Shown one piece after another: positions 12,102 through 47,278 of a stretch of 64,000 bases of DNA. The position numbers and the translations under genes were made by a program. This stretch comes from Thermoanaerobaculia bacterium. Lineage in GTDB: Bacteria; Acidobacteriota; Thermoanaerobaculia; Multivoradales; JAHEKO01. The notes under the pieces are model-generated. The model was not told the DNA's origin. It made no database searches and was given only the letters and a program-made list of their open reading frames with translations. Numbering within the stretch: the first letter of the stretch is position 1; each line of letters starts with the position of its first letter. The stretch covers positions 34,148 to 98,147 of the forward strand of contig CAMYLC010000021.1 of the NCBI GenBank assembly GCA_947259195.1. Reading direction: 5' to 3'.

Positions 12102-12128
12102 CCCGAATTGGTCCCGACGAGACAGAAC

Positions 12129-20229: not shown

Positions 20230-21075
20230 ATGAAGAAGATCGATCGCAGATCCGGCTCGAGGGCCGGTGTGGGGTTCTGCTTTCTGGTGCTGGCTTGTGT
20301 CGGCCTGCGGTCCAATCTTCAGGCAGAGGTTGTTTTCTACGATCCCAACGGAGAACCGCTACCGTTCGAGACCTTCGAGGAGGTCGAGGACTTCCTGGAG
20401 ACGGCCGACATCGCGTGGAAAGAGAAGCTCGCGTCGGGGACAAACAAGAAGAAACGCAAGGTGATGCTGGAGAAGGGCGGCGTGCAGGCGCACGCCATCC
20501 TCCGCACGGGCTACGAGATCAAGGATTCTCCAGGTGGCGGGTTCGTCGATTCTTGCCATTCCGAGGTCGCGGCCTATCAACTGAGTCGCCTGCTGGGTCT
20601 GGAGAGCGTTCCGCCGGCTGTGCGGCGTAAGGGCGGTACCATCCAGATCTGGGTCGAGAACGCGACGACGGATGCCTCTCGCAGAGAGAAGGGGACCGAG
20701 CCGGAGGACCCGACGGCCTTCGAGCAGCAGGTGCAGGTGATGGGGGTGTTCGACAATCTGATCGCCAACACGGATCGAAACCCGGGCAACATCCTGATCG
20801 ATGGAGACGGCAAGGTCTGGCTCATCGACCACACCCGCAGTTTCGCCGGCCAGACAGAGCTCAAATACCCCGAGAAGATCACGGGACTTGACCGCGGGGT
20901 GTGGGAGCGCCTGCAGGCTTTGTCCGATGCCGCACTCAAAGAGGCCATGCGACCCTATCTTCGTCAGTATCAGAACGAGCTGCTGGTGCGCCGCGAGCTC
21001 CTCGTGCAGGCGATCCAGAGCCAGATCGACAGCCTAGGCGAAGACGCCGTGCTTTTCGAGTCGGCTCCCCGCTGA
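20230..21075 (+). CDS. Exported atypical kinase-fold protein (PI4K/Fam20/HipA-like), paralog 1
   Basis: Signal peptide ending LQA; SEVAAYQLSRLLGL, VPP, GTIQIW, FDNLIANTDRNPGN, WLIDHTRSF. Confidence 0.75.
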   Translation: MKKIDRRSGSRAGVGFCFLVLACVGLRSNLQAEVVFYDPNGEPLPFETFEEVEDFLETADIAWKEKLASGTNKKKRKVMLEKGGVQAHAILRTGYEIKDSPGGGFVDSCHSEVAAYQLSRLLGLESVPPAVRRKGGTIQIWVENATTDASRREKGTEPEDPTAFEQQVQVMGVFDNLIANTDRNPGNILIDGDGKVWLIDHTRSFAGQTELKYPEKITGLDRGVWERLQALSDAALKEAMRPYLRQYQNELLVRRELLVQAIQSQIDSLGEDAVLFESAPR

Positions 21076-34097: not shown

Positions 34098-34411
34098 GCC
34101 CAACTGGCGAATCCGCCTTCAAAGAGGTCGGCGGCCTGCGAGGCTCCGAAATCCCGATCGAGGCGAGAATCATCGCCGTCGCTGACGTCTTCGATGCCAT
34201 GACCAGCGCCCGCCCCTATAAAGAGGCTTGGACCAACAATGAGGCGTTTTCGGCTCTGCAGCGCCTGGCGGGAGCGGAGCTGGACAAGGAGTGCGTCGAG
34301 GCCCTCATGCTGCGGACAGACGAGGTCGAGAAGATCCCGGCGAGATTTTCCCAGGGAACCCTGACAGGGGTCGAGCAGGCTCCCACCCGAGGGAGTCCAG
34401 AGAGGAGCTGA
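34094..34411 (+). pseudogene. C-terminal fragment of an HD-GYP phosphodiesterase
   Basis: GLRGSEIPIEARIIAVADVFDAMTSARPYK...AGAELD is the HD-GYP C-terminus; the HD and HHE...GYP motifs are missing. ATG overlaps the kinase stop. Confidence 0.8.
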
Positions 34412-34418
34412 GGAGGCG

Positions 34419-35312
34419 ATGATCTGGAGGAAGCTGGAAAAGAGGGGCCTCGTTCTGCTTGCAGCCCTGCTTGGAACAGTCGGCTTTCTAGAAGTCGGGG
34501 CGCGCGCCGAGGTGGAAGAAGATTCGGTCGACACACAGGATCTGTCGCAGCTTTCCGATCAGGAGATCGAGGCCATTCTCCTCGATGGCCGAATTGTAGA
34601 GAGGAAACACCTCGAAGTCGGTGTGACTCTGCCGGATCGGCTCTGGCTCGAGCACGACGGCTACCGGATGAGCGCTGCTTTCAAACATCTCGATTTGGAG
34701 CGCAAGGGACTGACGCATTTCGAGAAGGCGCCTCCCGAGCTCAACTTCAAGGACAGCTTTCGTTACGAGCGGGCCGCGTATCTGTTGGATCGACTTCTCG
34801 GCCTGGAGATGGTGCCGGTGACAGTGCTGCGGAGCGTGAAGGCTCACGAAGGGGCCGTCGTGGCCTGGGTCGAGGACGCCATCACCGAGCAGGAGCGGTT
34901 GCGTCTCAAGCTGGCGCCCGAGGATACTCGGCTTCTCATTCGGCAACGAGCGGCGATGAGGCTGTTCGACGCCCTGATCTACAACATCGACAACAACCTC
35001 GGTAATCAGCTGTGGACACGGCCGGACTGGCGCCTCCATCTCATTGACCACACACGCTCCTTTCGGCAGCGGAAGAGCCTTCCCGAGGGCTTCTCGAAAC
35101 GCCCGGTGAGCCTCACCCCGGAGCTCTACGACGTCCTCCGCTCTCTCGAAGAGCCGCAAGTCGAGGCGGCGCTCGGCAAGGTCCTGAGTCCGGGAGAGAT
35201 CAAGGCGGTGCTGGCGCGCCAAAAGCTGATCTTGGAGAAGATCGAGCACGATCGCCGAGAGTATGGCGAACCGTTCGTGTTTCTCGGCATGCCTGTTCCA
35301 CCAGATTCCTAG
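34419..35312 (+). CDS. Exported atypical kinase-fold protein, paralog 2
   Basis: Signal peptide ending ARA; GVT loop, AAFK, DSFRYERAAYLLDRLLGL, FDALIYNIDNNLGN, LIDHTRSF. Confidence 0.78.
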   Translation: MIWRKLEKRGLVLLAALLGTVGFLEVGARAEVEEDSVDTQDLSQLSDQEIEAILLDGRIVERKHLEVGVTLPDRLWLEHDGYRMSAAFKHLDLERKGLTHFEKAPPELNFKDSFRYERAAYLLDRLLGLEMVPVTVLRSVKAHEGAVVAWVEDAITEQERLRLKLAPEDTRLLIRQRAAMRLFDALIYNIDNNLGNQLWTRPDWRLHLIDHTRSFRQRKSLPEGFSKRPVSLTPELYDVLRSLEEPQVEAALGKVLSPGEIKAVLARQKLILEKIEHDRREYGEPFVFLGMPVPPDS

Positions 35313-35351
35313 CCCGCATTGTTCATCGCCGCGCGAGCAGATTGTGGAAAG

Positions 35352-35449
35352 CGTCCGCCATCTCTGGCCAACCGCAAAGAGGAGCACCGGAGGCAACCTT
35401 GCAGGTTGTCGAGGAGCGACGAGTGAGGACTGCCCTGAGATGGCGGACG
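35352..35449. repeat. Intergenic inverted repeat / long hairpin
   Basis: CGTCCGCCATCTC (35352-35364) pairs perfectly with GAGATGGCGGACG (35437-35449); apical stem CAACCT/AGGTTG (35394-35408). Confidence 0.65.
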
Positions 35450-35566
35450 ATCTCCGCTACATGTCGTGGGGCTCATGAATGCTGCGGACCTGGGGGCAAA
35501 GATAGGGCCGATAGCGGTGAACCGACCCGACTTGGTCTATATTGAGCAGACCAAAGGAGGGCTTCG

Positions 35567-38443
35567 GTGACCGGGGAAGCACCCGCAGCGCGGGGCGGAG
35601 GAGCTGCAGAGGCAGTGTGGAGGCGCACTCTCAGGCGCCTGGGTGTGGATTTGCGTCCAGGTGAGGGCTCTCCCGCAGCGCTCCTCTTCGCTTCACTCTT
35701 CCTGCTCCTGACGTTTCAGATCGCCACCAAGACGATCCGCCAGTCGACGTTCATCGACGCCCTGGGTGCCGCCAGACTGCCACTGGTCTATCTCCTGGTA
35801 GCGCTCGTCTCCTACCCGGTCCTTCGTCTTTACAACCGATTCGTCGATCGCTATCGGATCGACCAGTTGTTTGTCGCCTCCTGCGTCGGAATCGCCGGCA
35901 GCCTGGTCGTTTTCTGGGCGCTGATGCGCTACTCCTGGACCTGGGTGCCGGTGGTCTTCTACGTCGGATCCTCCATCGTTTACGGCATGCTGGCAAGCCA
36001 ATTCTGGTTGCTGGCCACGCATCTTTTCGATCCCCGTCAGGCCAGGCGGCTGTTCGGGTTCATCGGCGCGGGGGCTCTGCTGGGTGGCGTCCTCGGTGGG
36101 CAGGTGGCGCGGCTGGCTGGAAAGCTGGTGGGCACGAGCTCGGTCCTGCTGGTGGCTGCGGTCCTGCTGGTGATCGTAGCGCTGCTCATGATGCGGGCCC
36201 GCTCCTCCGACGCCATCGGGCTCAAGGGTGAGGAGCCCGGATCGTCCCGTGGCAAGCTCGAAAAAGCCAAGGGGGGATTCGAAGTTCTGAGGCAATCTCG
36301 CCCGCTGCAAACGATTGCTGCGGTGGTGATCCTGACAGTCATGGTGGCGCAGGTCGTTGACCTTCAGTTCAATTGGGCTGTGGAACAAAGCACCACCACT
36401 CTGGACCAGAGGACGGCTTTCTACGGCAACTTCTTCAGCGTCATGGGCATCGCTGCGTTCGTGTTTCAGCTGGCATTCACCTCTCGGATCCACCGGCGGC
36501 TGGGAATCTCCTTTGCGCTACGAGTCCTGCCGGTGACGATGGCCATCGGCACCGTAGCTCTGTTTCTTGCGGCGGGCTTCGTGCCCGAGATGCTGGTGGC
36601 AGCGGCGCTGATCCTGAAAGTCGGTGAGAGCGGTCTCCGATACTCTCTGGATCAGTCGACTCGGGAGCTCCTCTTCCTGCCAGTTCCATCACGGCTCCGG
36701 GTCAAGGCCAAGGCGTTCATCGATGTCTTCATTCAGCGAGGCGCCAAGGGGCTGTCCGCGCTCCTCTTGCTGCCGGTGACCTTTGGCGTCTTCACCCCGG
36801 TGCAGGCAGGCTGGATCTCACTCGTGCTCATCGCCATCTGGTTGAGTGTGACAGCCATCGCTTCCCGGGAATACGTGCGGGCTTTCCGCGTCGGCCTCAA
36901 GCAGAGGACGGTCGACGCTTCGGTCGCCGTGGATCTGTCGGATGTGACGACCCTGGAGCTGCTGTTGGAGTCCCTGGGCAGCTCAGACCGGCGTCAGGTC
37001 CTTCACTGTCTGGACATTCTGGCGGCGAATGGGCGGGGCGATCTGGTGCCGCCGCTGCTGCTCTACCACGACGAGCCCGAGGTGCGGCTTCGAACTCTCG
37101 GCATCCTGGCAGATCTCGGGCGCGTCGACGTCGCCCCGCTTATCGAGCGACGTCTAGGGGATTCCGACCCCGAGGTGCGTGCCGAGGCCATCAGGGTGCT
37201 GGCGGGCATGCAGGGCAAGGATGTTTGCCAATTGATGCTGCCCAGGCTGGAGGAGGGGGATCCGGGTGTGCGGGCAGCGGCGGTGGCTTGCCTGGCGAAC
37301 TACGGCGACGAAGCCATGACCGCCGACGCCACTCGGGTGCTCTTGAATCTACTGGCCGATGCCGAGCCCAGGATCAGGATCGAGGCTGTCAAAGCCATAG
37401 GCGCCGTGCACGAGCCGCTCTTTCAGGAAAGATTGATCCAATCGCTTTACGACTCCGACGTGGGTGTCATCAAGGAGGCCGTCGCCGCGATTCGCCGGCG
37501 AGTCGGTAGGGATGGCTTCAATCCACTCTACGTTCCGACCCTGATCGCGCTCCTCCAGAACCGCCGAGTCAGGCATGAGGCTAGAGAAGCGCTGGTGGCG
37601 TTCGGCGAGTCGACGATTCCGATGCTGGTCCATTTTATGAACCACCCCGATGAGCCCTTGTGGGTCAAGCGTGCCCTGCCGAAGGCCATCGCGCAGATCG
37701 GCACCATGGCCGCGGCTCAGGCACTGCTGGATGGACTGCGGCAGGGGAGCGATAGCTTTCTGAGGCGAAAGCAGGTGGAAGCCCTGACTTGGATGCTGGA
37801 GCACAACCACCGCCACGCATTGGACAGGCAGGACGTGCAGCAGCAGATTCGGGAAGAGGCGAGACGTTTCCTGCGACGTTTGGCTGCACTGCGCGGCCTG
37901 GGTCTGCATGCCAAGGGCGATCTCTCGGGGCCTCTCGTCGTGTGGAGTGAGGAGCGGGTTCCCACCCTTCTGGATCGACTGCTGGCAGAACGAGCGGCCA
38001 GCAATCTGTGGAATGTCTTCGGTCTTCTGGCGCTGCTGTTTCCACCGGAGCACATCTGGGCGGCTCATCGGAGTCTGACGAGTGGGGACAGGCTGCACCG
38101 GTCCCGCTCTCTGGAGTTTCTCGATAACACCTTGGAGGGCGAGCTCAGTCGGGCGGTCTTTGCCGTCATCGACGATTGCCCTTTGAGTGAGAAGCTGACC
38201 CGAGCCACCAAGTTGTTCGACATCAGGGTCCGTTCCAGGGTCGAGACACTGCGTGGTTTGCTGGAGGCGCATATCGGCGGCGAGCCCGACTCGGCGGGCA
38301 TCGCGGCGGCTGCCCTCTATGAGATTCGAGTCGAGAGCGTCCCAGGCCTCGAGGCCGAGGTCGAGCAACTGGCGGCAGGAGCCGAAGACCCCTTTGTGGG
38401 AGAAACCGCCACCTGGGTGGCGGAACGGGTGTCACGGGCCTAG
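35567..38443 (+). CDS. NTT/TLC ATP-ADP translocase-like MFS domain fused to HEAT repeats, paralog A
   Basis: About 12 hydrophobic segments; TKTIRQSTF, QFWLLATHLFDPRQARRLFG, RYSLDQSTRELLFLPVP...KAKAFID; HEAT units (DEPEVR, DSDPEVR, GDPGVRAAA, AEPRIR). Confidence 0.85.
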   Translation: MTGEAPAARGGGAAEAVWRRTLRRLGVDLRPGEGSPAALLFASLFLLLTFQIATKTIRQSTFIDALGAARLPLVYLLVALVSYPVLRLYNRFVDRYRIDQLFVASCVGIAGSLVVFWALMRYSWTWVPVVFYVGSSIVYGMLASQFWLLATHLFDPRQARRLFGFIGAGALLGGVLGGQVARLAGKLVGTSSVLLVAAVLLVIVALLMMRARSSDAIGLKGEEPGSSRGKLEKAKGGFEVLRQSRPLQTIAAVVILTVMVAQVVDLQFNWAVEQSTTTLDQRTAFYGNFFSVMGIAAFVFQLAFTSRIHRRLGISFALRVLPVTMAIGTVALFLAAGFVPEMLVAAALILKVGESGLRYSLDQSTRELLFLPVPSRLRVKAKAFIDVFIQRGAKGLSALLLLPVTFGVFTPVQAGWISLVLIAIWLSVTAIASREYVRAFRVGLKQRTVDASVAVDLSDVTTLELLLESLGSSDRRQVLHCLDILAANGRGDLVPPLLLYHDEPEVRLRTLGILADLGRVDVAPLIERRLGDSDPEVRAEAIRVLAGMQGKDVCQLMLPRLEEGDPGVRAAAVACLANYGDEAMTADATRVLLNLLADAEPRIRIEAVKAIGAVHEPLFQERLIQSLYDSDVGVIKEAVAAIRRRVGRDGFNPLYVPTLIALLQNRRVRHEAREALVAFGESTIPMLVHFMNHPDEPLWVKRALPKAIAQIGTMAAAQALLDGLRQGSDSFLRRKQVEALTWMLEHNHRHALDRQDVQQQIREEARRFLRRLAALRGLGLHAKGDLSGPLVVWSEERVPTLLDRLLAERAASNLWNVFGLLALLFPPEHIWAAHRSLTSGDRLHRSRSLEFLDNTLEGELSRAVFAVIDDCPLSEKLTRATKLFDIRVRSRVETLRGLLEAHIGGEPDSAGIAAAALYEIRVESVPGLEAEVEQLAAGAEDPFVGETATWVAERVSRA

Positions 38444-38497
38444 CATCATGTCTGCGATGACCTATAATCCTAGGGCCATTCTGCGCCGGAGGTACCG

Positions 38498-41377
38498 ATG
38501 AGTCCAGACGGGTCTGGAATAGCTGTGACTACACAAGAGACGCCCTTCTGGCGGCGTCTGGCTAGCCGTCTCGGCATCGATTTGCGGTCCGGTGAGGGGT
38601 GGCCGGCTCTCCTGCTGTTCATTACCTTCTTTCTCTTTATCACCTTTCAGTACGCCACCAAGAGCGTTCGGCAGTCCTCCTACGTCAAGGGGCTGGGAGC
38701 TGCCAACCTGCCCTGGGTCTACTTGGCGGTGGCGGTCTGCTCTTACCCACTGCTCAGGCTCTATGGGCGGTTCGCTGACCGGGTCAAGCGCCACCATCTC
38801 ATGGCGGCGACCTGCACCATCATCGCCATCAGCATGGTCGCGTTCTGGTGGCTGTTTCAGTTCACCTGGACGTGGATCCCGTTCGCGCTCTATGTCTGGA
38901 TCTCGATCGCCTACGTAATGAACGTCAGTCAGTTCTGGTCGTTCTCGAACCATGTCTTCGACCCTCGCCAGGCCAAGCGCCTGTTCGGCTTCATCGGTGC
39001 GGGAGGCCTACTGGGAGGCATCGCTGGCGGTCAGGTGGCTCGCCTGGTCAGCTATCTGGTGGACACCCGAACGACGTTTCTGGTGGCGGCCGCCATTCTC
39101 ATGCTGGCGGTGGGGATCATCTTCCTGATCCAGCGGCAACGACCTGCCGACTCGGACGCCGTAGCGGGTGCAGCCGGCCTGGCCAAACTCGACAAAGCCA
39201 AAGGCGGTTTCGAGATCATCAAGAGCTCGCGGCAGCTGCAGGTCATCACGGCGATCATGGTCCTGAGCGTCGTAGTGGCGCAGATCGTCGATCTCCAGTT
39301 CAACTGGGCGGTGGAGAACGCCACGACCGATCTGGAGAACGCCACCCGCTTCTTCGGCAACTTCTACAGCATCATGGGGATTGCGGCCTTCCTCTTTCAG
39401 CTGGCCTTTACGGCTCGCATTCACCGGGTGCTGGGTGTCGGGGTGGCGATGAGAGTTCTGCCGGTGACCATGGCCTTCGGGACGGCGGCACTGTTTGTTT
39501 CGGCAGGGCTCTTCCCCTCGCTACTCTTGGCGACAGCGCTTTTCCTGAAGGTGGGTGAGAACGGGGTGCGCTACTCGCTCGAGCAGGCGACACGTGAGCT
39601 GCTGTTCCTGCCCGTGCCATCCAAGGCTCGCGTCAAGGCGAAGGCCTTCATCGACGTCTTCGTGCAGCGAGGCGCCAAGGGATTGGCGGCGCTGCTGCTT
39701 TTGCCCGTGACATTTCACCTCTTTACCCCGGTGCAGGCAGGCTGGATCTCACTCGTGCTCATCGCGGTCTGGCTCGTTGTCACCGTCATTGCCTACAAGG
39801 AGTATGTACATTCCTTTCTTCTCGGGCTCAAGAAGCGAAGCGTCGATGCGGAGATCCCGATCAACCTCTCCGACGTCACGACGCTGGAAATGCTGGTGCA
39901 AGCTCTCGGCAGCTCGGATGCACGGCAGGTCATCCAGAGTCTCGACATTCTGGCTTCCAACAATCGTGAAAACCTGGTCTCTCCGCTGCTGCTCTACCAT
40001 GATGATGCCGAGGTGCGCCAGCGCACCCTCGAGATTCTGGCCAAGGCGGGGCGAGTCGACGCCTTGCCGCTTATCGAAGGGCGCCTGGCGGACCACAACC
40101 CGGAAGTCAGAGTCGGCGCCATTCAGGCGCTGGCCGAGCTGCATGGTGAGGATGCTTGCGACCTGATGCTGCCACGACTGCGAGAGAGTGACGCCGGAGT
40201 GCGTGCTGCGGCGGTGGCCTGCCTTGCCAACTACGGGACGGAGTCGATGGCGGACGAGGCCACCCGCGCGCTCAATGATCTTCTGTCCGATGCGGATCCG
40301 GAGATCCGGGCCGAGGCGGCGAAGGCACTCGGAGCCATACGCGAGCCCCGATTCCAGGAGCTGCTGATTCGTCTCCTCTACGATCGGGAGCCGCAGATCG
40401 CTCGCGAGGCGATCTCGGCTATTCGGCGCAGAGTAGCGCGAGATGGCTACAACCCGATCTACGTGCCGACCCTTGTCTCGCTGCTCAACAACCGCAGAGT
40501 GAAGCATGATGCGCGGGAGGCGCTCGTGGCTTTCGGCGAGCCCGCGATCCCGACCCTGGCTCACTTCATGGGTGAGTCTGACGAGCAGCTATGGGTGCGA
40601 CGTGCTCTGCCGATGACCATTGCCAAGATCGGCACCCTGGCCGCCGCAGAGAAACTCTTCGGGCATCTCGGTGATTCGCGCGACTCGTTTCAACGGCGCA
40701 AGCTGATCGAGTCGATAGGAGCTCTGCCGGAAGACATTCGGCATACGATCGATCTAAAGATGATCGAAGAACAGACTCATTTCGAGGCTGGGCGCTACCT
40801 TCAGGCCCTTGCCGATCTGCTTGCCCTCGGCGGCATGCAGAAGAGCAGGCTCGAAGGGGGTTGTATCGTCTGGCGCGAGGATGCCCACGAACCCGACCTG
40901 GTTGAGAGACTCCTGGGGGAGCGTGCAGAAGAGCACCTGCGGAACATCTTCGGCCTGGTTGCCGCTCTCTTTCCGCCGCATGACGTCTGGGCGGCGCATC
41001 GCAGCTTGACGGGTGGCGCTGCTGGCTTGCGAAGTCACGCCCTGGAGTACCTGGATAATACCCTTTCGGGGGACCTGCGGAGGAGTGTCTTCGCCGTCAT
41101 CGACGATCAACCCATCGACGAGAAGCTCAATGCTGCCGAGAGGAGCTTCGGGGTGACGAGAGCCACGAAGGTCCGCACATTGGACAGGATGCTGGTGGTG
41201 CGTGAGGGGGGAGATTCCGAGGAGTTCCACCTCACTTTGGCGGCTCTCTATGCCGTTCACGAGGGAAGAGTCGCGGAGCTCTACGATCGGGTCCAGTCCC
41301 TGGTACAGAACGCCACGGATCCGTTTGTCGGCGAGACGGCCCGTTGGGTCGCTGTCAGAGAGGGAATATCAGCCTAG
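38498..41377 (+). CDS. NTT/TLC ATP-ADP translocase-like MFS domain fused to HEAT repeats, paralog B
   Basis: Collinear with paralog A; TKSVRQS, QFWSFSNHVFDPRQAKRLFG, RYSLEQATRELLFLPVP..KAKAFID; HEAT repeats. Confidence 0.85.
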   Translation: MSPDGSGIAVTTQETPFWRRLASRLGIDLRSGEGWPALLLFITFFLFITFQYATKSVRQSSYVKGLGAANLPWVYLAVAVCSYPLLRLYGRFADRVKRHHLMAATCTIIAISMVAFWWLFQFTWTWIPFALYVWISIAYVMNVSQFWSFSNHVFDPRQAKRLFGFIGAGGLLGGIAGGQVARLVSYLVDTRTTFLVAAAILMLAVGIIFLIQRQRPADSDAVAGAAGLAKLDKAKGGFEIIKSSRQLQVITAIMVLSVVVAQIVDLQFNWAVENATTDLENATRFFGNFYSIMGIAAFLFQLAFTARIHRVLGVGVAMRVLPVTMAFGTAALFVSAGLFPSLLLATALFLKVGENGVRYSLEQATRELLFLPVPSKARVKAKAFIDVFVQRGAKGLAALLLLPVTFHLFTPVQAGWISLVLIAVWLVVTVIAYKEYVHSFLLGLKKRSVDAEIPINLSDVTTLEMLVQALGSSDARQVIQSLDILASNNRENLVSPLLLYHDDAEVRQRTLEILAKAGRVDALPLIEGRLADHNPEVRVGAIQALAELHGEDACDLMLPRLRESDAGVRAAAVACLANYGTESMADEATRALNDLLSDADPEIRAEAAKALGAIREPRFQELLIRLLYDREPQIAREAISAIRRRVARDGYNPIYVPTLVSLLNNRRVKHDAREALVAFGEPAIPTLAHFMGESDEQLWVRRALPMTIAKIGTLAAAEKLFGHLGDSRDSFQRRKLIESIGALPEDIRHTIDLKMIEEQTHFEAGRYLQALADLLALGGMQKSRLEGGCIVWREDAHEPDLVERLLGERAEEHLRNIFGLVAALFPPHDVWAAHRSLTGGAAGLRSHALEYLDNTLSGDLRRSVFAVIDDQPIDEKLNAAERSFGVTRATKVRTLDRMLVVREGGDSEEFHLTLAALYAVHEGRVAELYDRVQSLVQNATDPFVGETARWVAVREGISA

Positions 41378-41399
41378 CCGTGGTGGAGGAGGGAAACCT

Positions 41400-41813
41400 G
41401 TGTCTGAGCTAGCCAGGATCGAAACGGTCGTTTTTCTGCAGAGCGTCGATATCTTCTCCTACTGCAAGGCGGAGGAGGTGCTGCGGATCGCCGCCATTGC
41501 TCAGGAGAGGATGGTAGCCGCAGGAGAGAAGATCTACAGCGCGAACGAGCCGGCGGAGGGCCTGTTCTGTGTCGTTCGGGGCAGTGTCAAGATCGAGTCT
41601 TCAAACGGCGAGACCAAGAATGTCGGCCCCCTGGCGACGTTCGGTGGAATCGACATTCTTCGCAGTCGCCTGAGGACGGCAACGGCGACGGCCGAGACGG
41701 ACAGCCTGCTACTGGCCATCGAGAGCGACGATCTTTTCGATCTTCTGTCGAATAACATCGAGATCGTCAAGGCTCTGTTCCGCCACCTCATCGAACGGTT
41801 CCAGGGCGAGTAG
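41400..41813 (+). CDS. Stand-alone cyclic-nucleotide-binding domain protein
   Basis: GTG 41400 after GGAGGAGG; FLQSVDIFS, GEKIY, LFCVVRGSV, FGGIDIL...RTATATA; no HTH. Confidence 0.85.
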   Translation: MSELARIETVVFLQSVDIFSYCKAEEVLRIAAIAQERMVAAGEKIYSANEPAEGLFCVVRGSVKIESSNGETKNVGPLATFGGIDILRSRLRTATATAETDSLLLAIESDDLFDLLSNNIEIVKALFRHLIERFQGE

Positions 41814-41835
41814 TCTGAAGAGCAAGGAGGCCTGA

Positions 41836-42915
41836 ATGTCCGAGTCCAATTCGACAGCCCACCGCGGGCGGTGGATCCCTGTTTTGACAGCCCTGCTGAT
41901 GGTTGTCTGTCTGGCCCCTTACCTTGGCTACGCCCTGGAGGTCCCGGCCAGGGTTTTGGCGATCGGCGACAGCCATGCCGGGTACGAAGGCCTGGATGCG
42001 AGGCTCGCTGCCTTTCCCCCGCCAGGTCCTGAGTCGCAAGGCGCCAAGACGCCGAACCGGGTCTTTCATGGTCCCGACGGCGCGCCCTTGCCTTTCCAAA
42101 CGGTCTCCGAGGTAGAGGAGTTCTTGCGCACGGCGAATGTAGTCGACGTACAGCTCATTGGGGAGGGCGTCACCAAACCGAAGAGGATCCTCCTGGAAGC
42201 TGGCGGCGTCCAGGCGCGGGCGAAGTTCGGTTACTACGATTTCAAGGGACAGGGAGAGAAACTGGCAGACGGCACGACAGAGATGTACTTCCAGGACAGC
42301 TACAAGGCGGACATGGCGGGGTACGTGCTGAGTCGACTACTGGGAATGGAGATGGTGCCGCCCGCTGTCGCCCGACAGGTGGAGGGTCAGGATGGCATCG
42401 TCCAGATATGGATTGAAGATCTGACCAGCTATGAGAGCTGGATTCAGGATGGCAATTCCGGTCAGCCGGCCTCGCTCTATTTCCAGCGGCAGGTCAAGGA
42501 CATGAAGACCTTCGATCTGCTGATCCGGAATATCGACCGTCACAGTCGCAACATCAATTGGGACAACGACTGGAACCTCTGGCTCATCGATCACACACGC
42601 AGCCTGGCCAAGGATGCGACCCTCCGCAAGGAAGACTCCTTCAAGGGTTGCTCCAGGGGGCTCTTCCAGGCGATTCGAGGCTTGAGCAAGAGCGATTTGG
42701 AGGCAGCTCTCGGCCCCTACCTCGGCGGGTTCGAGATCAAGGCACTCCTCAAACGACGGGACAAGCTCGTGAAGATGATCGAAGGACAGATCAAGAAGCA
42801 GGGCGAAGACAGGATTCTGTTCAACTACGGAGATGCACCGCCGGGTCTGGTCATCAGTTACGACGAATCTGCTGAGCTGGCGCCGCACGGCGCTGCAGCC
42901 AAGAGTGCTGGATAG
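41836..42915 (+). CDS. Exported atypical kinase-fold protein, paralog 3 (with N-terminal metallophosphoesterase-like remnant)
   Basis: Signal peptide ending GYA; GPDGAPLPF..VEEFL, GVTKP, DSYK, LSRLLGMEMVPP, GIVQIW, FDLLIRNIDRHSRN, WLIDHTRS. Confidence 0.78.
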   Translation: MSESNSTAHRGRWIPVLTALLMVVCLAPYLGYALEVPARVLAIGDSHAGYEGLDARLAAFPPPGPESQGAKTPNRVFHGPDGAPLPFQTVSEVEEFLRTANVVDVQLIGEGVTKPKRILLEAGGVQARAKFGYYDFKGQGEKLADGTTEMYFQDSYKADMAGYVLSRLLGMEMVPPAVARQVEGQDGIVQIWIEDLTSYESWIQDGNSGQPASLYFQRQVKDMKTFDLLIRNIDRHSRNINWDNDWNLWLIDHTRSLAKDATLRKEDSFKGCSRGLFQAIRGLSKSDLEAALGPYLGGFEIKALLKRRDKLVKMIEGQIKKQGEDRILFNYGDAPPGLVISYDESAELAPHGAAAKSAG

Positions 42916-43004
42916 GGTCCGCCAACCGGCCTCGACTGGTGGTCTGCTGGGCTCGGTGGAGGGTTGACTGCTAAACCCGAGAGAGTAGTTTGCGTAATGC
43001 AGGT

Positions 43005-43919
43005 ATGAGCGCGGTTCTGCCGGGGTGTCTCCCGTTCGCCTGTGTGTTGGCTCTGGCTACACTGTCGCCGGCCTCGGCACAGTCGGTGCCTGCCGGAACC
43101 TTCGACTCCCGAGTCTTGTTGGGCCCTGATGGAAAGAGCCTCCGGTTAGCCGCCCAGGATGAGATCCTTGGATTCCTGACCAGTGCCGAAGAACGCTCGG
43201 TCACGGTCCTGTCACGTGGAATTACCGGGGCAAAGAGGCTGACCCTGGAACGTGGGGAGACCGCAGCTCGGGTCATCTTTCATGACGTCGATCGATACGA
43301 GCAGAAACTGAAGCGGCTGCCGAACGGCAGGACCGTGATGTATCTGCGAGACAGCTACAAGAGTCAGATAGCCGCCTATCGTCTGGGAAGGCTCCTAGGA
43401 ATGCAGAATGTGCCGCCGACTGTGCTGCGGGTGTCGGGGAGCGCTACGGGCTCAGCGCAGCTGTGGATCGAAAAGGCGATGACCGAGGATATTCGATTGA
43501 GCGAAGGCCTCGAACCGCCGGACCACAATCTGTGGAACCAGAGCCTGGCCGACATGCAGGTTTTCGACAATCTGATCAACAACATCGATCGCAACCAGGG
43601 CAATATGTTGGTGGACTCCTTCGGCAATCTCTGGTTAATCGATCACACGCGTGCGTTCGGGCAGGACAAGGTGCTCCCACTGCCCGAGATGATCAGTCGG
43701 TGCTCGAATTCCATGCTGCAGGCCATCCGCTCGCTGAACGAAGAGACCGTCAGAAAGGAGCTAGCTCCCTTACTCTCTCGTGTCGAGATCAAGGCGCTTT
43801 GGCACAGACGGGCCAGGGTGCTGAAACGAATCGAACAGCAACTTGCATCCAAGGGTCCGGAGTCGGTCCTGTTCGACTATGGCGATCCCGATCCCGGCGT
43901 GACCATTCTGGATGAGTGA
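43005..43919 (+). CDS. Exported atypical kinase-fold protein, paralog 4
   Basis: Signal peptide ending ASA; GPDG, GIT, DSYKSQIAAYRLGRLLGM, VPPTV, GSAQLW, FDNLINNIDRNQGN, WLIDHTRAF. Alternative TTG start at 42990. Confidence 0.78.
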   Translation: MSAVLPGCLPFACVLALATLSPASAQSVPAGTFDSRVLLGPDGKSLRLAAQDEILGFLTSAEERSVTVLSRGITGAKRLTLERGETAARVIFHDVDRYEQKLKRLPNGRTVMYLRDSYKSQIAAYRLGRLLGMQNVPPTVLRVSGSATGSAQLWIEKAMTEDIRLSEGLEPPDHNLWNQSLADMQVFDNLINNIDRNQGNMLVDSFGNLWLIDHTRAFGQDKVLPLPEMISRCSNSMLQAIRSLNEETVRKELAPLLSRVEIKALWHRRARVLKRIEQQLASKGPESVLFDYGDPDPGVTILDE

Positions 43920-44012
43920 CCGGCTGCGGTCCAGCGGTGGAGGTGGTGGCACCGCAGATGGCGAAGAACGGGCTCACCATACCTCGGGCTCCACAGGGGT
44001 AGACTTGCCCGA

Positions 44013-45821
44013 ATGACGAAGACCTCCTTCCCCGATCTGAGAGCTTTCCTCGAACACCTGCGACGAGGTGGGGATCTCGCCGTGGTGGAGGCACCCGTCG
44101 ACCCTCGGCTGGAGGTGGCAGAGGTTCATCGTCGGGTGATCGCCGCCGACGGCCCAGCTCTGCTCTTCACCAACCCCGTGGGCTCGGCCTATCCACTGGT
44201 GACGAATCTCTTTGGATCTGCCCGCCGGGCGGAGGCAGCCTTCGGGCCTGAGCCTTTGCGTCTCATCAAGCGCCTCGTGTCGCTCTCGCAGGATCTGTTG
44301 CCTCCGACGCTGTCAGGCCTCTGGGGTGCGAAGGACGTGGCCTGGAAAGCGCTGCGAATCGGCTCCAGGAAGACCGGTCAGGGCCCGGTCATGCAGAGGC
44401 TCAGCCGAGAACCGGACCTGAGTCAGCTCCCCGTGATTACCTCCTGGCCGGATGACGGAGGGCCGTTCATGACACTTCCTCTGGTCTTCACCGAGCATCC
44501 AGAGGGTGCCGGCCACAATCTCGGGATGTACCGGATGCAGGTGTATGACCGACGTTCAACTGGAATGCACTGGCAGATCGGCAAAGGGGGTGGCTTTCAC
44601 TACGCCGTGGCGGAGGCTCTCCAGCAGCCTCTCCCAGCGACGGTCTATCTCGGAGGACCTCCGGCGCTGATTCTCGCCGCGGTCGCTCCTTTGCCCGAAA
44701 ACGTCCCCGAGCTCATGCTGGCCTCGCTCATCGTCGGTGAGAAGCTGCGTGTCTGCTCGGGACCCGACGGTGCCGGCCTGCTGGCAGATTGCGAGTTCGC
44801 TCTTGGGGGTAGGGTGACTGCCGACCTGCGCCGTATGGAGGGCCCGTTCGGCGACCACTATGGTTACTATTCCCTCGCCCACGAGTACCCGGTCTTCGAG
44901 GTCGATTGGCTGGCCTGTCGCCGGGATGCGATCTATCCAGCGACTGTGGTGGGCAAGCCCCGCCAGGAAGATTTCTTCATTGGGGATCTTCTGCAGGAGT
45001 TGCTGGCTCCCCTGTTTCCGTTGGTGATGCCGGGAGTGATCGATCTCTGGTCCTACGGTGAGACCGGCTATCACTCGCTGGCAGCAGCCGTCGTCAAGGA
45101 GCGCTACAAGCGCGAGGCCATGGCCAGCGCTTTTCGAATTCTGGGCGAAAGCCAGCTTTCACTCACGAAGTTCCTGTTGATCACCGACCAGAGGGTCGAC
45201 CTGAGAAGTTTCAAGGCTACCCTCGAGCACATTCTGGAGCGCACCCGACCCGAGACCGATCTCTTCGTTCTCAGCAACCTCTCGATGGATACGTTGGACT
45301 ACTCTGGGCCGCGAGTCAACGAGGGCTCGAAAGGAGTCTTGCTGGGTTTGGGAGAGCCGGTGAGGCAGCTGCCTGGAGAGTTTCGGGCCGACGTCTTGCC
45401 GTCAGGGGTGACCGAGGTCCAGGTTTTCTGTCCGGGCTGCCTGGTTATCGGCGGTCCACCCCAGCCCGATGAGCCCCAGGCGGGTGAGCGTCTGGCAGCC
45501 GAGGCGGTATTCCGCGATTGGCCCTTGCTCGTCCTGACTGACGAGCCGGTCCGAGCTGCCGCCAGCGCGATGAATTTCCTTTGGACGACCTTCACTCGCT
45601 TCGAACCGGCTGCCGACATTCATGCGGCCGCAAGTCGAGTGGTACGAAACCACGTCGCCTACAGCCCGCCTGTTCTGATCGACGCTCGGCGCAGGGAGGG
45701 TTTTCCATCGGAGCTGTTCTGCTCCCCAGAGATTGCTCAGAGGGTGACGCGGAGATGGAAGGAGTACTTTCCGCAGGGCGGTATCGAGATGGGCGACTCG
45801 GACCGTGGCCATCTGGACTGA
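44013..45821 (+). CDS. UbiD-family prFMN-dependent decarboxylase
   Basis: DLRAFL, NLFGS, NLGMYRMQV, EGPFGDHYGYY, TVVGKPRQED, DTLDYSG. Confidence 0.92.
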   Translation: MTKTSFPDLRAFLEHLRRGGDLAVVEAPVDPRLEVAEVHRRVIAADGPALLFTNPVGSAYPLVTNLFGSARRAEAAFGPEPLRLIKRLVSLSQDLLPPTLSGLWGAKDVAWKALRIGSRKTGQGPVMQRLSREPDLSQLPVITSWPDDGGPFMTLPLVFTEHPEGAGHNLGMYRMQVYDRRSTGMHWQIGKGGGFHYAVAEALQQPLPATVYLGGPPALILAAVAPLPENVPELMLASLIVGEKLRVCSGPDGAGLLADCEFALGGRVTADLRRMEGPFGDHYGYYSLAHEYPVFEVDWLACRRDAIYPATVVGKPRQEDFFIGDLLQELLAPLFPLVMPGVIDLWSYGETGYHSLAAAVVKERYKREAMASAFRILGESQLSLTKFLLITDQRVDLRSFKATLEHILERTRPETDLFVLSNLSMDTLDYSGPRVNEGSKGVLLGLGEPVRQLPGEFRADVLPSGVTEVQVFCPGCLVIGGPPQPDEPQAGERLAAEAVFRDWPLLVLTDEPVRAAASAMNFLWTTFTRFEPAADIHAAASRVVRNHVAYSPPVLIDARRREGFPSELFCSPEIAQRVTRRWKEYFPQGGIEMGDSDRGHLD

Positions 45822-45837
45822 CCGCATCGGAGGCGAT

Positions 45838-46158: not shown

Positions 46159-46188
46159 GCCCTGTGGGGCTCGCCTGAGGAGGTTTGC

Positions 46189-47068: not shown

Positions 47069-47278
47069 GGACTCCTTCTGGGTTGCATGACTGGTGTCGG
47101 CGATTTGACGCCGCGGTGTCGGCGGAGCGGCCCCTGCGCTCCATGGATCCTTGACGGGAAAGGGCGCGTCGAGCTTGCAGGACTGACAGACCAGCCAAAC
47201 CGCGATCGCCGTGGAGGCGTCTCGGCGCTCTACCCGGTGCTAGAATCGCGCGGCTCATAGCAGCGCGAGGAGAGAGAA

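What the first reader, a model, noticed from the sequence alone, without database searches (positions are those of the whole stretch)
34419..43919. Candidate extracytoplasmic phosphorylation system: tandem ATP/ADP translocase-HEAT genes, a cNMP protein and exported atypical kinases
Seen: a co-oriented, tightly spaced run of exported kinase-fold gene, NTT-HEAT A, NTT-HEAT B, cNMP protein and two more exported kinase-fold genes. All three kinase-fold proteins have Sec-like signal peptides and an N-x-D-[RN]-x-x-x-N...LIDH core. Established: NTT/TLC carriers exchange ATP for ADP in Chlamydia, Rickettsia and plastids; NTT-HEAT(-cNMP) homologs occur in free-living bacteria with no function known to me; the periplasm is generally regarded as lacking ATP; secreted kinases (Fam20C, CotH) need an ATP supply. 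Inference: these NTTs export ATP and recover ADP to power periplasmic or surface kinases, gated from the cytoplasm by HEAT and cyclic-nucleotide domains, a bacterial analogue of secretory-pathway phosphorylation.
Basis: partly seen in the sequence, partly recalled or inferred. Interest (0 to 1): 0.9.

Follow-up and report, generated by a model that had tools for sequence, protein, structure and literature searches.

The report
Nucleotide transporter linked to exported kinases
A soil or sediment bacterium keeps ATP/ADP-exchanger-type membrane transporters next to exported relatives of the animal Golgi kinase Fam20C, a pairing repeated in many genomes, which suggests that some bacteria feed ATP to enzymes working outside the cytoplasm.

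Summary
Six co-oriented genes encode an exported kinase-fold protein (K1), two paralogous NTT-HEAT transporters, a small cNMP-domain protein and two more exported kinase-fold proteins (K2, K3).

The kinase-fold proteins are bacterial relatives of Fam20 secretory-pathway kinases. A profile matches Fam20A at E 2e-13, and Fam20C is the top Foldseek hit. The catalytic Asp, Asn and DFG-like Asp are invariant.

The linkage is conserved:
- 44 of 79 kinase loci from public genomes have an NTT(-HEAT) gene within 10 kb.
- All 62 kinase-bearing genomes in a 251-genome phylum sample also have an NTT match.
- In Desulfobacterota, kinase genes sit 70-75 bp from plain NTT genes that lack HEAT.

In many relatives the kinase is fused to an exported Shelph-type PPP phosphatase, and K2 keeps a relic of that domain. 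A kinase-phosphatase cycle would make ADP + Pi, the counter-substrates of solved NTT1.

The ATP-export reading is the best explanation (about 0.55), but substrate and direction of transport are untested. My literature searches found no paper describing this linkage.

The parts
34419..35312 (+). K1: exported Fam20-like kinase-fold protein, 297 aa. It keeps a Lys at the Fam20C beta3-Lys position (AAFKHLD).
   Evidence: TIGR03843 gives E 1.7e-10, below its cut-off. The N-terminal hydrophobic 10-mer scores KD 2.61 and is preceded by 4 K/R.
35567..38443 (+). NTT-HEAT A: a 12-helix TLC/NTT transporter domain followed by a cytoplasmic HEAT solenoid, 958 aa.
   Evidence: TLC 56.4 bits against cut-off 21; HEAT_2 E 1.4e-29; 59% identical to B.
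38498..41377 (+). NTT-HEAT B, 959 aa. Twelve long helices span residues 34-449. HEAT-type repeats follow from about residue 460.
   Evidence: The AF2 model has pLDDT 82.5. The top Foldseek hit is ATP-bound C. pneumoniae NTT1 (9j3n, E 1.1e-9, TMt 0.71).
41400..41813 (+). Small cNMP-binding-domain protein, 137 aa, with no signal sequence.
   Evidence: PF00027 57.5 bits against cut-off 27.5. GTG start with an SD-like GGAGGAGGG upstream; conserved downstream of NTT-HEAT in 23 relatives; fused to NTT-HEAT in L029.
41836..42915 (+). K2: exported Fam20-like kinase-fold protein, 359 aa. Its N-terminus keeps the signal peptide and motif I (LAIGDxH) of a lost Shelph phosphatase domain.
   Evidence: Residues 16-51 align to residues 10-43 of the fusion P0127. 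Residues 44-342 align to its kinase part 415-699 (39% identity, E 1e-72).
43005..43919 (+). K3: exported Fam20-like kinase-fold protein, 304 aa from ATG 43005 (the ORF opens at TTG 42990). His replaces the beta3 Lys.
   Evidence: The AF2 model has pLDDT 84.7. The top Foldseek hits are Fam20C, Fam20A and hydra Fam20 (E about 1e-9).
20230..21075 (+). K0: fourth paralog of the same kinase family, 281 aa, 14 kb upstream of the cluster.
   Evidence: 37% identical to K3. PF00454 34.2 bits, above its cut-off of 27.1..

Best explanation
This is a conserved module. An NTT-type nucleotide exchanger in the inner membrane serves exported kinases of the Fam20 type. In this window the exchanger is a tandem pair carrying cytoplasmic HEAT domains, with a separate cNMP-domain protein. 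In many relatives the exported kinase is fused to a Shelph-type PPP phosphatase.

Most likely mechanism (inferred): the exchanger passes cytoplasmic ATP to the periplasm and takes back ADP and phosphate. A kinase-phosphatase cycle outside the cytoplasm makes exactly those two products, so adenylate and phosphate are conserved. The HEAT domain and the cNMP protein sit on the cytoplasmic side and probably set when the exchanger works.

The kinase substrates are unknown (envelope proteins or glycans). No conserved substrate gene lies in the neighbourhood.

Shown:
- gene content, family assignments and folds;
- export signals, by heuristic only;
- conserved linkage and co-occurrence.

Inferred:
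- the transported substrate and its direction;
- ATP use by the kinases;
- gating.
For: Kinase identity:
- A profile of 19 family members matches solved Fam20A at E 2.2e-13, Fam20C at 1.8e-9 and hydra xylosylkinase at 1.9e-7. The catalytic-loop and DFG-like blocks align.
- The AF2 model of K3 (pLDDT 84.7, pTM 0.81) has Fam20C, Fam20A and Fam20 as its top Foldseek hits, with TMq 0.55-0.60.
- D200, N205 and D218 are invariant in 19 of 19 sequences.

Export:
- 100 of 109 full-length members have an N-terminal hydrophobic segment and 12 have a lipobox-like site. The 9 without one look like short gene calls.

Linkage, with the kinase as bait:
- 44 of 79 loci from genome contigs have an NTT and/or HEAT hit within the flank of at most 10 kb. 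Many of the other 35 sit on short contigs.
- No other window gene is conserved around these loci beyond close relatives.

Co-occurrence:
- In 251 genomes of the phylum, 115 have an NTT match and 62 have a kinase match. All 62 kinase genomes are among the 115. The kinase genomes span 28 families. Relatedness inflates any p-value.

Reverse test, 60 NTT-HEAT loci:
- 18 have a kinase in the flank, in 13 families.
- 24 have a kinase and/or the related phosphatase.
- In the closest NTT-HEAT clade, 12 of 12 do.

Second phylum (Desulfobacterota):
- 4 of 201 sampled genomes have the kinase.
- Five genomes were tested for NTT: those four plus G253, reached from locus L056. Four of the five have an NTT beside a kinase gene.
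- In three of them (G251, G287, G253) a 648-676 aa fusion-size ORF lies 70-75 bp from a 440-448 aa NTT ORF with no HEAT.

Fusions:
- The gene after cNMP in relatives encodes signal peptide + Metallophos + kinase, about 700 aa.
- The phosphatase part matches the Shewanella cold-active protein-tyrosine phosphatase 2z72 at E 8.6e-25.
- Of the best 150 representatives, 48 are at least 590 aa long. Of those, 41 carry GDxHG, GDxxDRG and GNH[ED], and 46 have a hydrophobic N-terminus.

NTT side:
- Pfam TLC scores are above the cut-off.
- The model has 12 helices.
- The top fold hits are ATP-bound C. pneumoniae NTT1 and ADP/Pi-bound AtNTT1.
- The blocks FWxFxN..AKR and TxE..P..KxKAxIDV..R..K are shared with 9j3n, and several of those residues are invariant in 23 NTT-HEAT proteins.
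- NTTs accept phosphate as a third substrate (PMC2606016; title and start of abstract seen in the listing).

Gating:
- A fused NTT-HEAT-cNMP protein of 1109 aa occurs in L029, and fused forms were reported by Major et al..
- The HEAT + cNMP complex prediction scored 0.51 against a best control of 0.00, verdict 'weak support'. The mark was reached by 58 of 80 solved complexes and 2 of 110 mismatched pairs. At 0.60 or under it was reached by only 7 of those 80 and by both mismatches that passed. The runs agree in at least 92% of contacts, and the partner's pLDDT is at least 83.

Expression (weak):
- Contigs from a marine-sediment RNA library (X1) match parts of NTT-A, NTT-B, cNMP and K2. Twelve of the 15 laid pieces are at least 99% alike.
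- One 302-nt contig bridges the NTT-B/cNMP junction.
- DNA carry-over is not excluded.
Against: - No transport or kinase activity was measured. Nothing here shows substrate or direction.
- These NTT domains are distant from characterised carriers: 16-18% identity in the fold alignments, and TIGR00769 scores 49 and 42 bits against a cut-off of 387.
- I could not map published nucleotide-binding residues, because the NTT1 structure paper is not in the library.
- 53 of 115 NTT-positive genomes have no kinase, and 36 of 60 NTT-HEAT loci have neither kinase nor phosphatase nearby. The transporters therefore have other or broader roles.
- Many kinase copies lie away from any NTT: 35 of 79 loci, plus K0 and the three fusions in this genome.
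- No Lys is invariant in the kinase family. The Fam20C beta3-Lys position is His in most members, including K3, so some members may bind nucleotide unusually or be pseudokinases like Fam20A.
- ATP is small enough to leak through outer-membrane porins (established knowledge).
- In the cNMP domain the residue after the near-invariant Arg is variable, so the ligand may not be a cyclic nucleotide.
- Almost all data come from metagenome-assembled genomes.
Confidence: 0.55

Rival explanations
1. The architecture is the same but the chemistry differs. The NTT-type carrier moves another nucleotide or anionic cofactor (another NTP, NAD, a nucleotide sugar) to the periplasm. The exported kinase-fold enzymes use it for phosphorylation with another donor, or for a non-kinase reaction such as AMPylation.
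For: Characterised NTT family members carry NAD or other nucleotides besides ATP (Major et al., passages). The window's carriers are distant from ATP/ADP carriers. Most kinase family members have His, not Lys, at the beta3 position. That kinase-fold enzymes can do other chemistry is recalled knowledge, not tested here.
Against: The catalytic Asp, Asn and DFG-like Asp typical of phosphotransfer are invariant. The closest solved relatives are true kinases, or an ATP-binding pseudokinase. The fused partner is a phosphomonoesterase-type PPP, which fits a phosphate cycle.
Confidence: 0.17
2. Uptake rather than supply. The carrier imports external nucleotides for salvage, as in energy parasites. The exported phosphatase and kinase-fold proteins bind or process external nucleotides or organic phosphate ahead of uptake.
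For: All characterised bacterial NTTs work as importers from the cell's point of view (abstracts in the listing). Some bacterial PPPs are diadenosine tetraphosphatases, and the fusions give weak sub-threshold hits to ApaH and PrpE models (PMC535813 passages). Sediment and soil contain external nucleotides (established knowledge).
Against: An exported kinase with intact catalytic residues has no role in salvage without a phosphoryl donor outside the cell. The phosphatase part is closest to a protein-tyrosine phosphatase (E 8.6e-25), not to ApaH (E 8e-6 to 2e-10, below cut-off). These free-living genomes of 3-8 Mb are not expected to depend on imported ATP (inference). An obligate exchanger gives no net nucleotide gain.
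Confidence: 0.1
3. The coupling is regulatory, not metabolic. The exported kinase and phosphatase sense or modify something outside the cell. They are co-expressed with, or act on, the transporter without drawing their co-substrate from it.
For: HEAT and cNMP domains point to signalling. The kinase and NTT trees were not compared.
Against: This leaves the exported kinase without a phosphoryl donor. The linkage persists with plain NTT genes that lack any regulatory domain. That points to the transport function itself.
Confidence: 0.1
4. There is no functional link. The adjacency reflects shared ancestry of a few related genomes, or mis-binning.
For: Most genomes are MAGs. Close relatives share wider synteny: UbiD, the methyltransferase and IspG are conserved in 3-7 loci.
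Against: Adjacency is seen with NTT-HEAT genes only 25-35% identical to the window's, in different orientations and domain architectures. It occurs in 13 families of the phylum and in Desulfobacterota. Co-occurrence is 62 of 62. No other neighbour is conserved.
Confidence: 0.03

Closest known systems
Fam20C / Fam20A / Fam20B secretory-pathway kinases of animals (PDB 5yh3, 5wrr, 5xom, 4kqa)
   Same: Homologous kinase domain: profile E 2e-13 to 8e-6 and top fold hits. The catalytic-loop and DFG-like blocks align. Both carry a signal peptide and work outside the cytosol. As with the Fam20A/Fam20C pair, paralogs differ at nucleotide-site residues (Lys in K1, His in K3).
   Different: Bacterial, about 300 aa, and without the extra N-terminal segments. 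The catalytic loop is DRNxxN, like PI3/PI4 kinases, not DRHHYE. The Pfam Fam20C score is below its cut-off (26.4 against 26.8). The domain is often fused to a PPP phosphatase. Substrates are unknown. In eukaryotes ATP reaches the ER/Golgi through an unrelated carrier (SLC35B1/AXER; recalled, not checked here).
NTT1 ATP/ADP translocators of Chlamydia and plastids (PDB 9j3n, 9j3j-9j3m)
   Same: Pfam TLC family, 12 helices, best fold match and shared sequence blocks. The solved carrier binds ATP, and also ADP with Pi (entry titles).
   Different: Only 16-18% identity in the fold alignments. Carries a C-terminal HEAT domain of about 500 residues. Found in a free-living bacterium, where the ATP-rich side is the cytoplasm, so the same exchange would run outward. 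Activity is untested.
NTT-HEAT and NTT-HEAT-cNBD fusion clade (Major et al. 2017, PMC5381601)
   Same: Same architecture, with the same cNBD gene directly downstream. That paper already proposed an operon and a functional link, and it lists Acidobacteria among the taxa (passages).
   Different: The passages I read report no function and no link to kinases or phosphatases. They suggest ATP uptake or cell-to-cell ATP exchange. I could not see the paper's supplements, which may list neighbouring genes.
Shewanella-like PPP phosphatases (Shelph; Shewanella PPI, PDB 1v73 / 2z72; Andreeva and Kutuzov 2004, PMC535813)
   Same: The N-terminal domain of the fused relatives matches at E 8.6e-25. It has the three PPP motifs in 41 of 48 long representatives.
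   Different: Here the phosphatase is fused to a kinase domain and linked to NTT genes. The window's own cluster keeps only a relic of it in K2. Three full fusions lie elsewhere in the genome.
LpxT-type periplasmic phosphorylation (PMC2229476; title and start of abstract seen in the listing)
   Same: Adds phosphate to an envelope molecule on the periplasmic side.
   Different: LpxT takes the phosphate from undecaprenyl pyrophosphate, not ATP (partly recalled). The module here implies a nucleotide donor delivered by a dedicated carrier.

Membership tests
NTT / TLC nucleotide transporters (Pfam PF03219) | Score above the Pfam gathering cut-off | tested here: met
   56.4 bits (A) and 51.0 bits (B) against a cut-off of 21.
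NTT / TLC nucleotide transporters (Pfam PF03219) | NCBIfam TIGR00769 (NTP/NDP exchange transporter) cut-off | tested here: not met
   49.2 and 42 bits against a cut-off of 387.2. These are divergent members.
NTT / TLC nucleotide transporters (Pfam PF03219) | 12-helix fold closest to solved NTT1 | tested here: met
   The AF2 model has 12 long helices at residues 34-449. Foldseek ranks 1-3 are 9j3n, 9j3m and 9j3l, with TMt 0.69-0.71. Other MFS carriers reach similar TM-scores but with worse E-values.
NTT / TLC nucleotide transporters (Pfam PF03219) | Nucleotide-binding residues of the solved carrier are conserved | tested here: inconclusive
   Shared blocks include AKR, TxE and KxKAxIDV, and several of those residues are invariant in 23 homologs. 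The published binding residues could not be mapped, because the paper is not in the library.
NTT / TLC nucleotide transporters (Pfam PF03219) | Nucleotide counter-exchange activity | not testable with these tools
   Needs uptake or proteoliposome assays.
NTT-HEAT(-cNBD) clade of Major et al. 2017 | NTT domain with a C-terminal HEAT repeat domain | tested here: met
   HEAT_2 E 1.4e-29 and 5.6e-32. The model shows a solenoid from about residue 460.
NTT-HEAT(-cNBD) clade of Major et al. 2017 | cNBD gene immediately downstream, or fused | tested here: met
   The cNMP gene starts 22 nt after NTT-HEAT B. A fused form occurs in L029.
NTT-HEAT(-cNBD) clade of Major et al. 2017 | Placement inside the monophyletic clade on a tree | not tested
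   No tree was built with their sequences.
Fam20 kinases (Pfam PF06702) | Score above the Pfam gathering cut-off | tested here: not met
   K3 scores 26.4 against 26.8. K2 scores 13.5. K1 has no hit. Precomputed Pfam labels list PF06702 for the identical protein P0007 and for some homologs.
Fam20 kinases (Pfam PF06702) | Sequence homology to solved Fam20 proteins | tested here: met
   Profile A1 against PDB sequences: Fam20A 2.2e-13, Fam20C 1.8e-9, DrFam20C1 2.3e-9, hydra Fam20 1.9e-7, C. elegans Fam20 7.6e-6. PI4KII reaches only 0.14.
Fam20 kinases (Pfam PF06702) | Fold | tested here: met
   Foldseek ranks 1-13 are Fam20 entries, with E 1e-9 to 2e-8 and TMq 0.55-0.60.
Fam20 kinases (Pfam PF06702) | Catalytic Asp and metal-binding DFG-like Asp | tested here: met
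   D200 and D218 (K3 numbering) are invariant in 19 of 19 sequences and align with the Fam20 DRH and DN(G/A)R blocks.
Fam20 kinases (Pfam PF06702) | beta3 Lys paired with an acidic residue of helix C | tested here: inconclusive
   The position aligned to the Lys in the Fam20C block ALFKPMK is Lys in K1, His in K3 and most members, and Arg in some. Invariant D121 lies where Fam20C Glu306 would fall in an ungapped helix alignment. That placement is my reading, and the Fam20C residue numbers are recalled.
Fam20 kinases (Pfam PF06702) | Phosphotransfer from ATP | not testable with these tools
   Needs purified protein.
PI3_PI4_kinase (Pfam PF00454) | Score above the gathering cut-off | tested here: not met
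   K3 scores 24.7 and K2 scores 14.4 against a cut-off of 27.1. Only the outlying paralog K0 passes, at 34.2.
SCO1664 family (NCBIfam TIGR03843) | Score above the curated cut-off | tested here: not met
   66.8, 45.9 and 40.7 bits against a cut-off of 172.4. A distant relative only.
Cyclic nucleotide-binding domain (Pfam PF00027) | Score above the cut-off, and the phosphate-binding-cassette Arg | tested here: met
   57.5 bits against 27.5. R92 is at least 90% conserved in 24 sequences. The next residue is variable, so the ligand is uncertain.
Shelph-type PPP phosphatases (fused relatives, not the window's cluster) | GDxHG, GDxxDRG and GNH[ED] motifs, and similarity to Shewanella PPI | tested here: met
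   41 of 48 long representatives carry all three motifs. 2z72 matches at E 8.6e-25. Metallophos scores are above the cut-off. In the window only a motif-I relic remains, in K2.

The most novel reading that the evidence does not exclude
Some diderm bacteria run an ATP-fuelled phosphorylation cycle outside the cytoplasm. A cytoplasmic nucleotide signal, read by the cNMP protein and the HEAT domain, opens an NTT exchanger. ATP supply itself then sets the balance between an exported Fam20-type kinase and its fused Shelph phosphatase, giving inside-out signalling to the envelope.

Fam20 kinases and Shelph phosphatases both work in the secretory pathway of eukaryotes. This bacterial module would therefore be the prokaryotic source of secretory-pathway phosphorylation.
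Probability: 0.2. Interest if true: 0.95.

Novelty: categorically new. Interest (0 to 1): 0.82.

Why it matters
The periplasm is taught as a compartment without ATP. Known envelope processes get their energy from the inner membrane through TonB, Tol, Lpt and Lol, or use donors such as undecaprenyl pyrophosphate.

A dedicated nucleotide exchanger tied to exported kinases and phosphatases would overturn that view for a sizeable group of bacteria. At least 1022 family representatives at 50% identity score E <= 1e-30.

It would also give the first testable function for the NTT-HEAT family. That family was described as of unknown function in 2017, and my searches found nothing since.

Finally, it would tie the origin of animal Fam20 kinases to a bacterial extracytoplasmic system. 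The prediction can be tested directly with transport assays and kinase assays on small soluble proteins.

Tried and rejected
Flanking genes as part of the system. The Hanks kinase-TPR, PD40, DUF2252, UbiD, methyltransferase, IspG and VWA genes are conserved only in close relatives (0-7 of 79 loci). De novo clustering over 61 linked loci found nothing recurrent besides NTT-HEAT, the kinase/phosphatase family and their antisense shadow ORFs. The next real family was Hanks kinases, in 8 loci. In the 42 NTT-HEAT loci without a kinase, the only recurrent extras were histidine kinases (12 loci; a very common family that was probably merged through its shared domains) and the stand-alone phosphatase (6 loci). 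No alternative exported ATP-using client was found.

Promoter and terminator scan of 33900-44300. It found 0 promoter-like sites and 5 terminator-like sites. Neither count exceeds the shuffles, so operon boundaries are not defined.

Simple hydropathy. It found only 8-9 of the 12 helices. The AF2 model was used instead.

Pfam TLC (PF03219) as a genome probe in Desulfobacterota. It hit 16 of 201 genomes but missed the NTT gene beside the kinase in G251. I did not use it as a base rate.

G289. It has a weak, partial kinase match, and no NTT was found with my query. Its completeness is not known to me.

Published nucleotide-binding residues of NTT1. Two searches did not find the structure paper, so I did no residue mapping. 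The older AtNTT1 mutagenesis residues are only recalled and were not used.

Literature. Searches found no paper that links NTT or NTT-HEAT to exported kinases or phosphatases, and none on bacterial Fam20-like proteins. The one exception is a single sentence placing FAM20B next to Myxococcota in a 2026 preprint (10.64898/2026.05.08.723234; passage only). The library misses most subscription journals, and supplements were closed.

ESM Atlas. It returned only clusters named 'hypothetical protein', mostly from Acidobacteriota.

RNA evidence. Parts of the stretch had no cover in individual runs, and no silent control stretch could be laid because the cap is one call. Transcription is therefore not shown.

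Full report
THE OBSERVATION

The window is part of a 4.28-Mb, 213-contig genome bin (87.7% complete, 4% contamination). Its closest public relatives are Thermoanaerobaculia MAGs of the Acidobacteriota (record titles).

Between 34419 and 43919 there are six co-oriented genes:
- K1, 34419-35312.
- NTT-HEAT A, 35567-38443.
- NTT-HEAT B, 38498-41377, 59% identical to A.
- A cNMP-domain protein. Its most likely start is GTG 41400, behind a GGAGGAGGG box, 22 nt after the TAG stop of B.
- K2, 41836-42915.
- K3, 43005-43919 by the database gene call.

Pfam gives TLC and HEAT_2 above cut-off for A and B, and cNMP_binding above cut-off for the small protein. For K1-K3 it gives only sub-threshold Fam20C, PI3_PI4_kinase and HipA_2 hits. 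NCBIfam adds a sub-threshold SCO1664-family hit. So is an N-terminal hydrophobic segment with an AxA-like site.

WHAT THE KINASE-FOLD PROTEINS ARE

K3 has 467 relatives at E <= 1e-3 among the 6600 candidates scored in the word-indexed search, all unnamed or 'hypothetical'. A profile of 19 members finds 7106 / 3286 / 1022 cluster representatives at E <= 1e-3 / 1e-10 / 1e-30.

Against PDB sequences the profile hits Fam20A (2.2e-13), Fam20C (1.8e-9), zebrafish Fam20C1, hydra xylosylkinase and C. elegans Fam20. PI4KII reaches only 0.14. The printed alignments pair the bacterial FDNLINNxDRNxGN block with Fam20 FDFLIGNMDRHHYE, and the bacterial LIDHTRSFG block with LDNGRGFG.

The AF2 model of K3 (pLDDT 84.7, pTM 0.81) has Fam20 entries at Foldseek ranks 1-13. 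PI4KII, PI3K and CtkA follow.

D121, R147, D193, N198, D200, N205, D218, H219, R221 and R273 are invariant in the 19-sequence alignment. There is no invariant Lys. The column aligned with the Fam20C beta3 Lys is Lys in K1, His in K3 and most members, and Arg in a few.

I file these proteins as bacterial relatives of Fam20 kinases. They are not members of Pfam PF06702 as currently drawn (26.4 against 26.8 bits), and they are not members of the SCO1664 family.

EXPORT

Of 109 family members that start with Met and are at least 270 aa long, 100 have a hydrophobic 10-mer (KD >= 1.9) near the N-terminus, and 12 have a lipobox-like site. The 9 without one begin inside the mature region and look like short gene calls. 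Another 14 were set aside as fragments. This is a heuristic; SignalP was not available.

In K1, basic residues precede the hydrophobic segment and acidic residues follow it. Even an uncleaved anchor would therefore place the domain outside the cytoplasm.

THE TRANSPORTERS

The AF2 model of NTT-HEAT B (pLDDT 82.5; pTM 0.49, so the orientation between domains is uncertain) has twelve long helices between residues 34 and 449. An all-helical solenoid runs to the C-terminus.

The best Foldseek hits are ATP-bound C. pneumoniae NTT1 (E 1.1e-9, TMt 0.71) and ADP/Pi- and ATP-bound AtNTT1. Other MFS carriers follow.

The phmmer alignment to 9j3n shares the blocks FWxFxN...AKRxF..G.G, Y..., T(K/R)E...P, and KxKAxIDV...R..K. 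R161, Y359, E367, P372, K382, D386, R391 and K394 are invariant in 23 NTT-HEAT proteins.

With 12 helices, a basic N-terminus and a basic central loop, the HEAT domain should be cytoplasmic. So should the signal-less cNMP protein.

Major et al. 2017 already described the NTT-HEAT clade, the downstream cNBD gene and the fused forms, and left the function open (passages).

IS THE LINKAGE CONSERVED?

(a) Kinase as bait. A scan of one genome per species found 327 stretches that encode relatives. The best 79 loci were kept, each with up to 10 kb of flank. tblastn found an NTT and/or HEAT hit in 44 of the 79. Many of the other 35 lie on short contigs, and several are second kinase copies from MAGs whose other copy is linked.

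Two layouts occur. In the first, NTT-HEAT is followed by cNMP and then the kinase. In the second, the kinase lies directly beside a distant NTT-HEAT (E about 1e-30 to the window's), in either orientation and without a cNMP gene.

(b) Phyletic pattern. In 251 genomes sampled across the phylum, 115 have an NTT match (this count includes the unpublished G049) and 62 have a kinase match. All 62 are among the 115, and they span 28 families. Relatives are not independent, so I give no p-value weight.

(c) NTT-HEAT as bait. I fetched 60 full-length NTT-HEAT loci of that sample. Of these, 18 have a kinase in the flank, in 13 families. Twenty-four have a kinase and/or the related phosphatase. In the clade closest to the window's genes, 12 of 12 do.

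(d) A second phylum. In Desulfobacterota the kinase is rare, in 4 of 201 sampled genomes. I tested five genomes for NTT: those four plus G253, which was reached from locus L056. Four of the five have an NTT beside a kinase gene. In G251, G287 and G253 a 648-676 aa fusion-size ORF lies 70-75 bp from a 440-448 aa NTT ORF with no HEAT domain.

(e) Specificity. None of the window's other genes travels with the module beyond close relatives. De novo clustering finds no further recurrent family.

The linkage is therefore with the NTT transport domain itself.

AN UNEXPECTED PARTNER

In many layout-1 loci the gene after cNMP encodes about 700 residues: a signal peptide, a Metallophos domain with GDxHG, GDxxDRG and GNHE, and then the kinase domain.

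The phosphatase part is closest to the Shewanella cold-active protein-tyrosine phosphatase (2z72/1v73, E 8.6e-25). That enzyme is the founding member of the Shelph group of PPPs (PMC535813, passages).

Among the best 150 family representatives, 48 are at least 590 aa long. Of those, 41 carry the three motifs and 46 have a hydrophobic N-terminus.

The window's genome has three such fusions on other contigs. One of them has a degenerate kinase motif.

K2 occupies the position of the fusion gene. It still carries the fusion's signal peptide and motif I (residues 16-51 against 10-43 of P0127), joined directly to the kinase part (residues 44-342 against 415-699, 39% identity). It looks like a fusion that has lost its phosphatase core.

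In three close relatives (L097, L100, L101) the phosphatase without a kinase domain follows cNMP.

MECHANISM

An exported kinase needs a phosphoryl donor outside the cytoplasm. The only gene that consistently accompanies it is a carrier of the family that exchanges ATP for ADP. That family also accepts phosphate as a co-substrate (PMC2606016, title and start of abstract in the listing; PDB entry title 'ADP/Pi bound AtNTT1').

A kinase-phosphatase pair converts ATP to ADP + Pi. An exchanger with that stoichiometry would close the loop and release ATP only on demand. That would limit loss through porins. This is inference; no activity was measured.

Regulation by HEAT and cNMP rests on three things:
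- Their predicted cytoplasmic location.
- The Rosetta-stone fusion (L029, 1109 aa; Major et al.).
- A weak complex prediction for HEAT(440-959) + cNMP: score 0.51, best control 0.00, verdict 'weak support'. The mark was reached by 58 of 80 solved complexes and 2 of 110 mismatched pairs. At 0.60 or under it was reached by only 7 of the 80 and by both mismatches that passed. The runs agree in at least 92% of contacts, and the partner's pLDDT is at least 83.

The ligand of the cNMP domain is uncertain.

AGAINST AND OPEN

- The carriers are remote from characterised NTTs.
- 53 of 115 NTT-positive genomes have no kinase, and 36 of 60 NTT-HEAT loci have no kinase or phosphatase nearby. NTT-HEAT must have other or wider roles.
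- Many kinase copies are unlinked.
- The His at the beta3 position leaves room for unusual nucleotide binding or for pseudokinase partners.
- No substrate candidate emerges.

Expression evidence is weak. Contigs from RNA libraries of two studies match parts of the stretch. In run X1, 12 of the 15 laid pieces are at least 99% alike. One 302-nt contig bridges the NTT-B/cNMP junction. DNA carry-over was not controlled.

NOVELTY AND VERDICT

Every part belongs to a known superfamily, and the NTT-HEAT + cNBD operon is in print. What is not in print, as far as my searches reach (open-access library only, supplements closed):
- the family of exported bacterial Fam20-like kinases;
- their fusion to Shelph phosphatases;
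- their conserved pairing with NTT carriers.

The implied process is nucleotide-dependent phosphorylation in the bacterial periplasm, fed by a dedicated exchanger. I know of no described bacterial counterpart. Its nearest analogue is the eukaryotic secretory pathway.

I rate functional coupling of the module as very likely (about 0.9). I rate the specific ATP-out / ADP+Pi-in reading at about 0.55.

Noticed in passing
window 20230-21075 (+), with 21124-21912 and 21931-26382: A fourth paralog of the kinase family (K0) passes Pfam PI3_PI4_kinase at 34.2 bits. It sits 14 kb upstream, followed by a SAM methyltransferase and a 1483-aa Hanks kinase with TPR and TolB_N domains.
   Followed up: partly
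window 41836-42000 (N-terminus of K2): K2 keeps the signal peptide and the first metal-binding motif of a Shelph phosphatase, joined straight to the kinase domain. It looks like a phosphatase-kinase fusion with the phosphatase core deleted.
   Followed up: yes
L005:100-2184, L006:1513-3447(-), L007:1477-3402(-) (other contigs of the window's genome): Three phosphatase-kinase fusions lie far from any NTT gene. The L007 protein has a degenerate catalytic loop and DFG-like motif and may be a pseudokinase. The L005 and L006 proteins keep a Lys and a Glu where Fam20C has them.
   Followed up: partly
L029:5433-8762: A close relative encodes NTT-HEAT and the cNMP domain as a single 1109-aa protein. 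This is a Rosetta-stone fusion for the window's two genes.
   Followed up: partly
L102, L104-L107, L109, L110 (G098, G218, G134, G248, G178, G168, G208): Another clade has two divergently transcribed NTT-HEAT genes, one of 1115-1310 aa (mostly with a fused cNMP domain) and one of 920-1010 aa. Recurrent pairs of paralogs, as in the window's tandem A/B, may mean the carriers work as hetero-oligomers.
   Followed up: no
L016 (record titled uncultured Polyangiaceae MAG): This record has the same layout, including tandem NTT-HEAT A/B, cNMP, K2 and K3. Its NTT-HEAT is 65% identical to the window's and its K3 52% identical. This points to either gene transfer into Myxococcota or a mis-binned acidobacterial contig.
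   Followed up: no
L126 (G059:C8): Here the kinase hit (9794-11422) and the phosphatase hit (11349-12539) lie in different frames and in the order kinase then phosphatase. This is either a frameshifted fusion or the reverse domain order.
   Followed up: no
window 27613-28842 and 44013-48514: A DUF2252 gene lies upstream. UbiD-like decarboxylase, methyltransferase and IspG genes lie downstream. They are syntenic only in the closest relatives and are not part of the module.
   Followed up: yes
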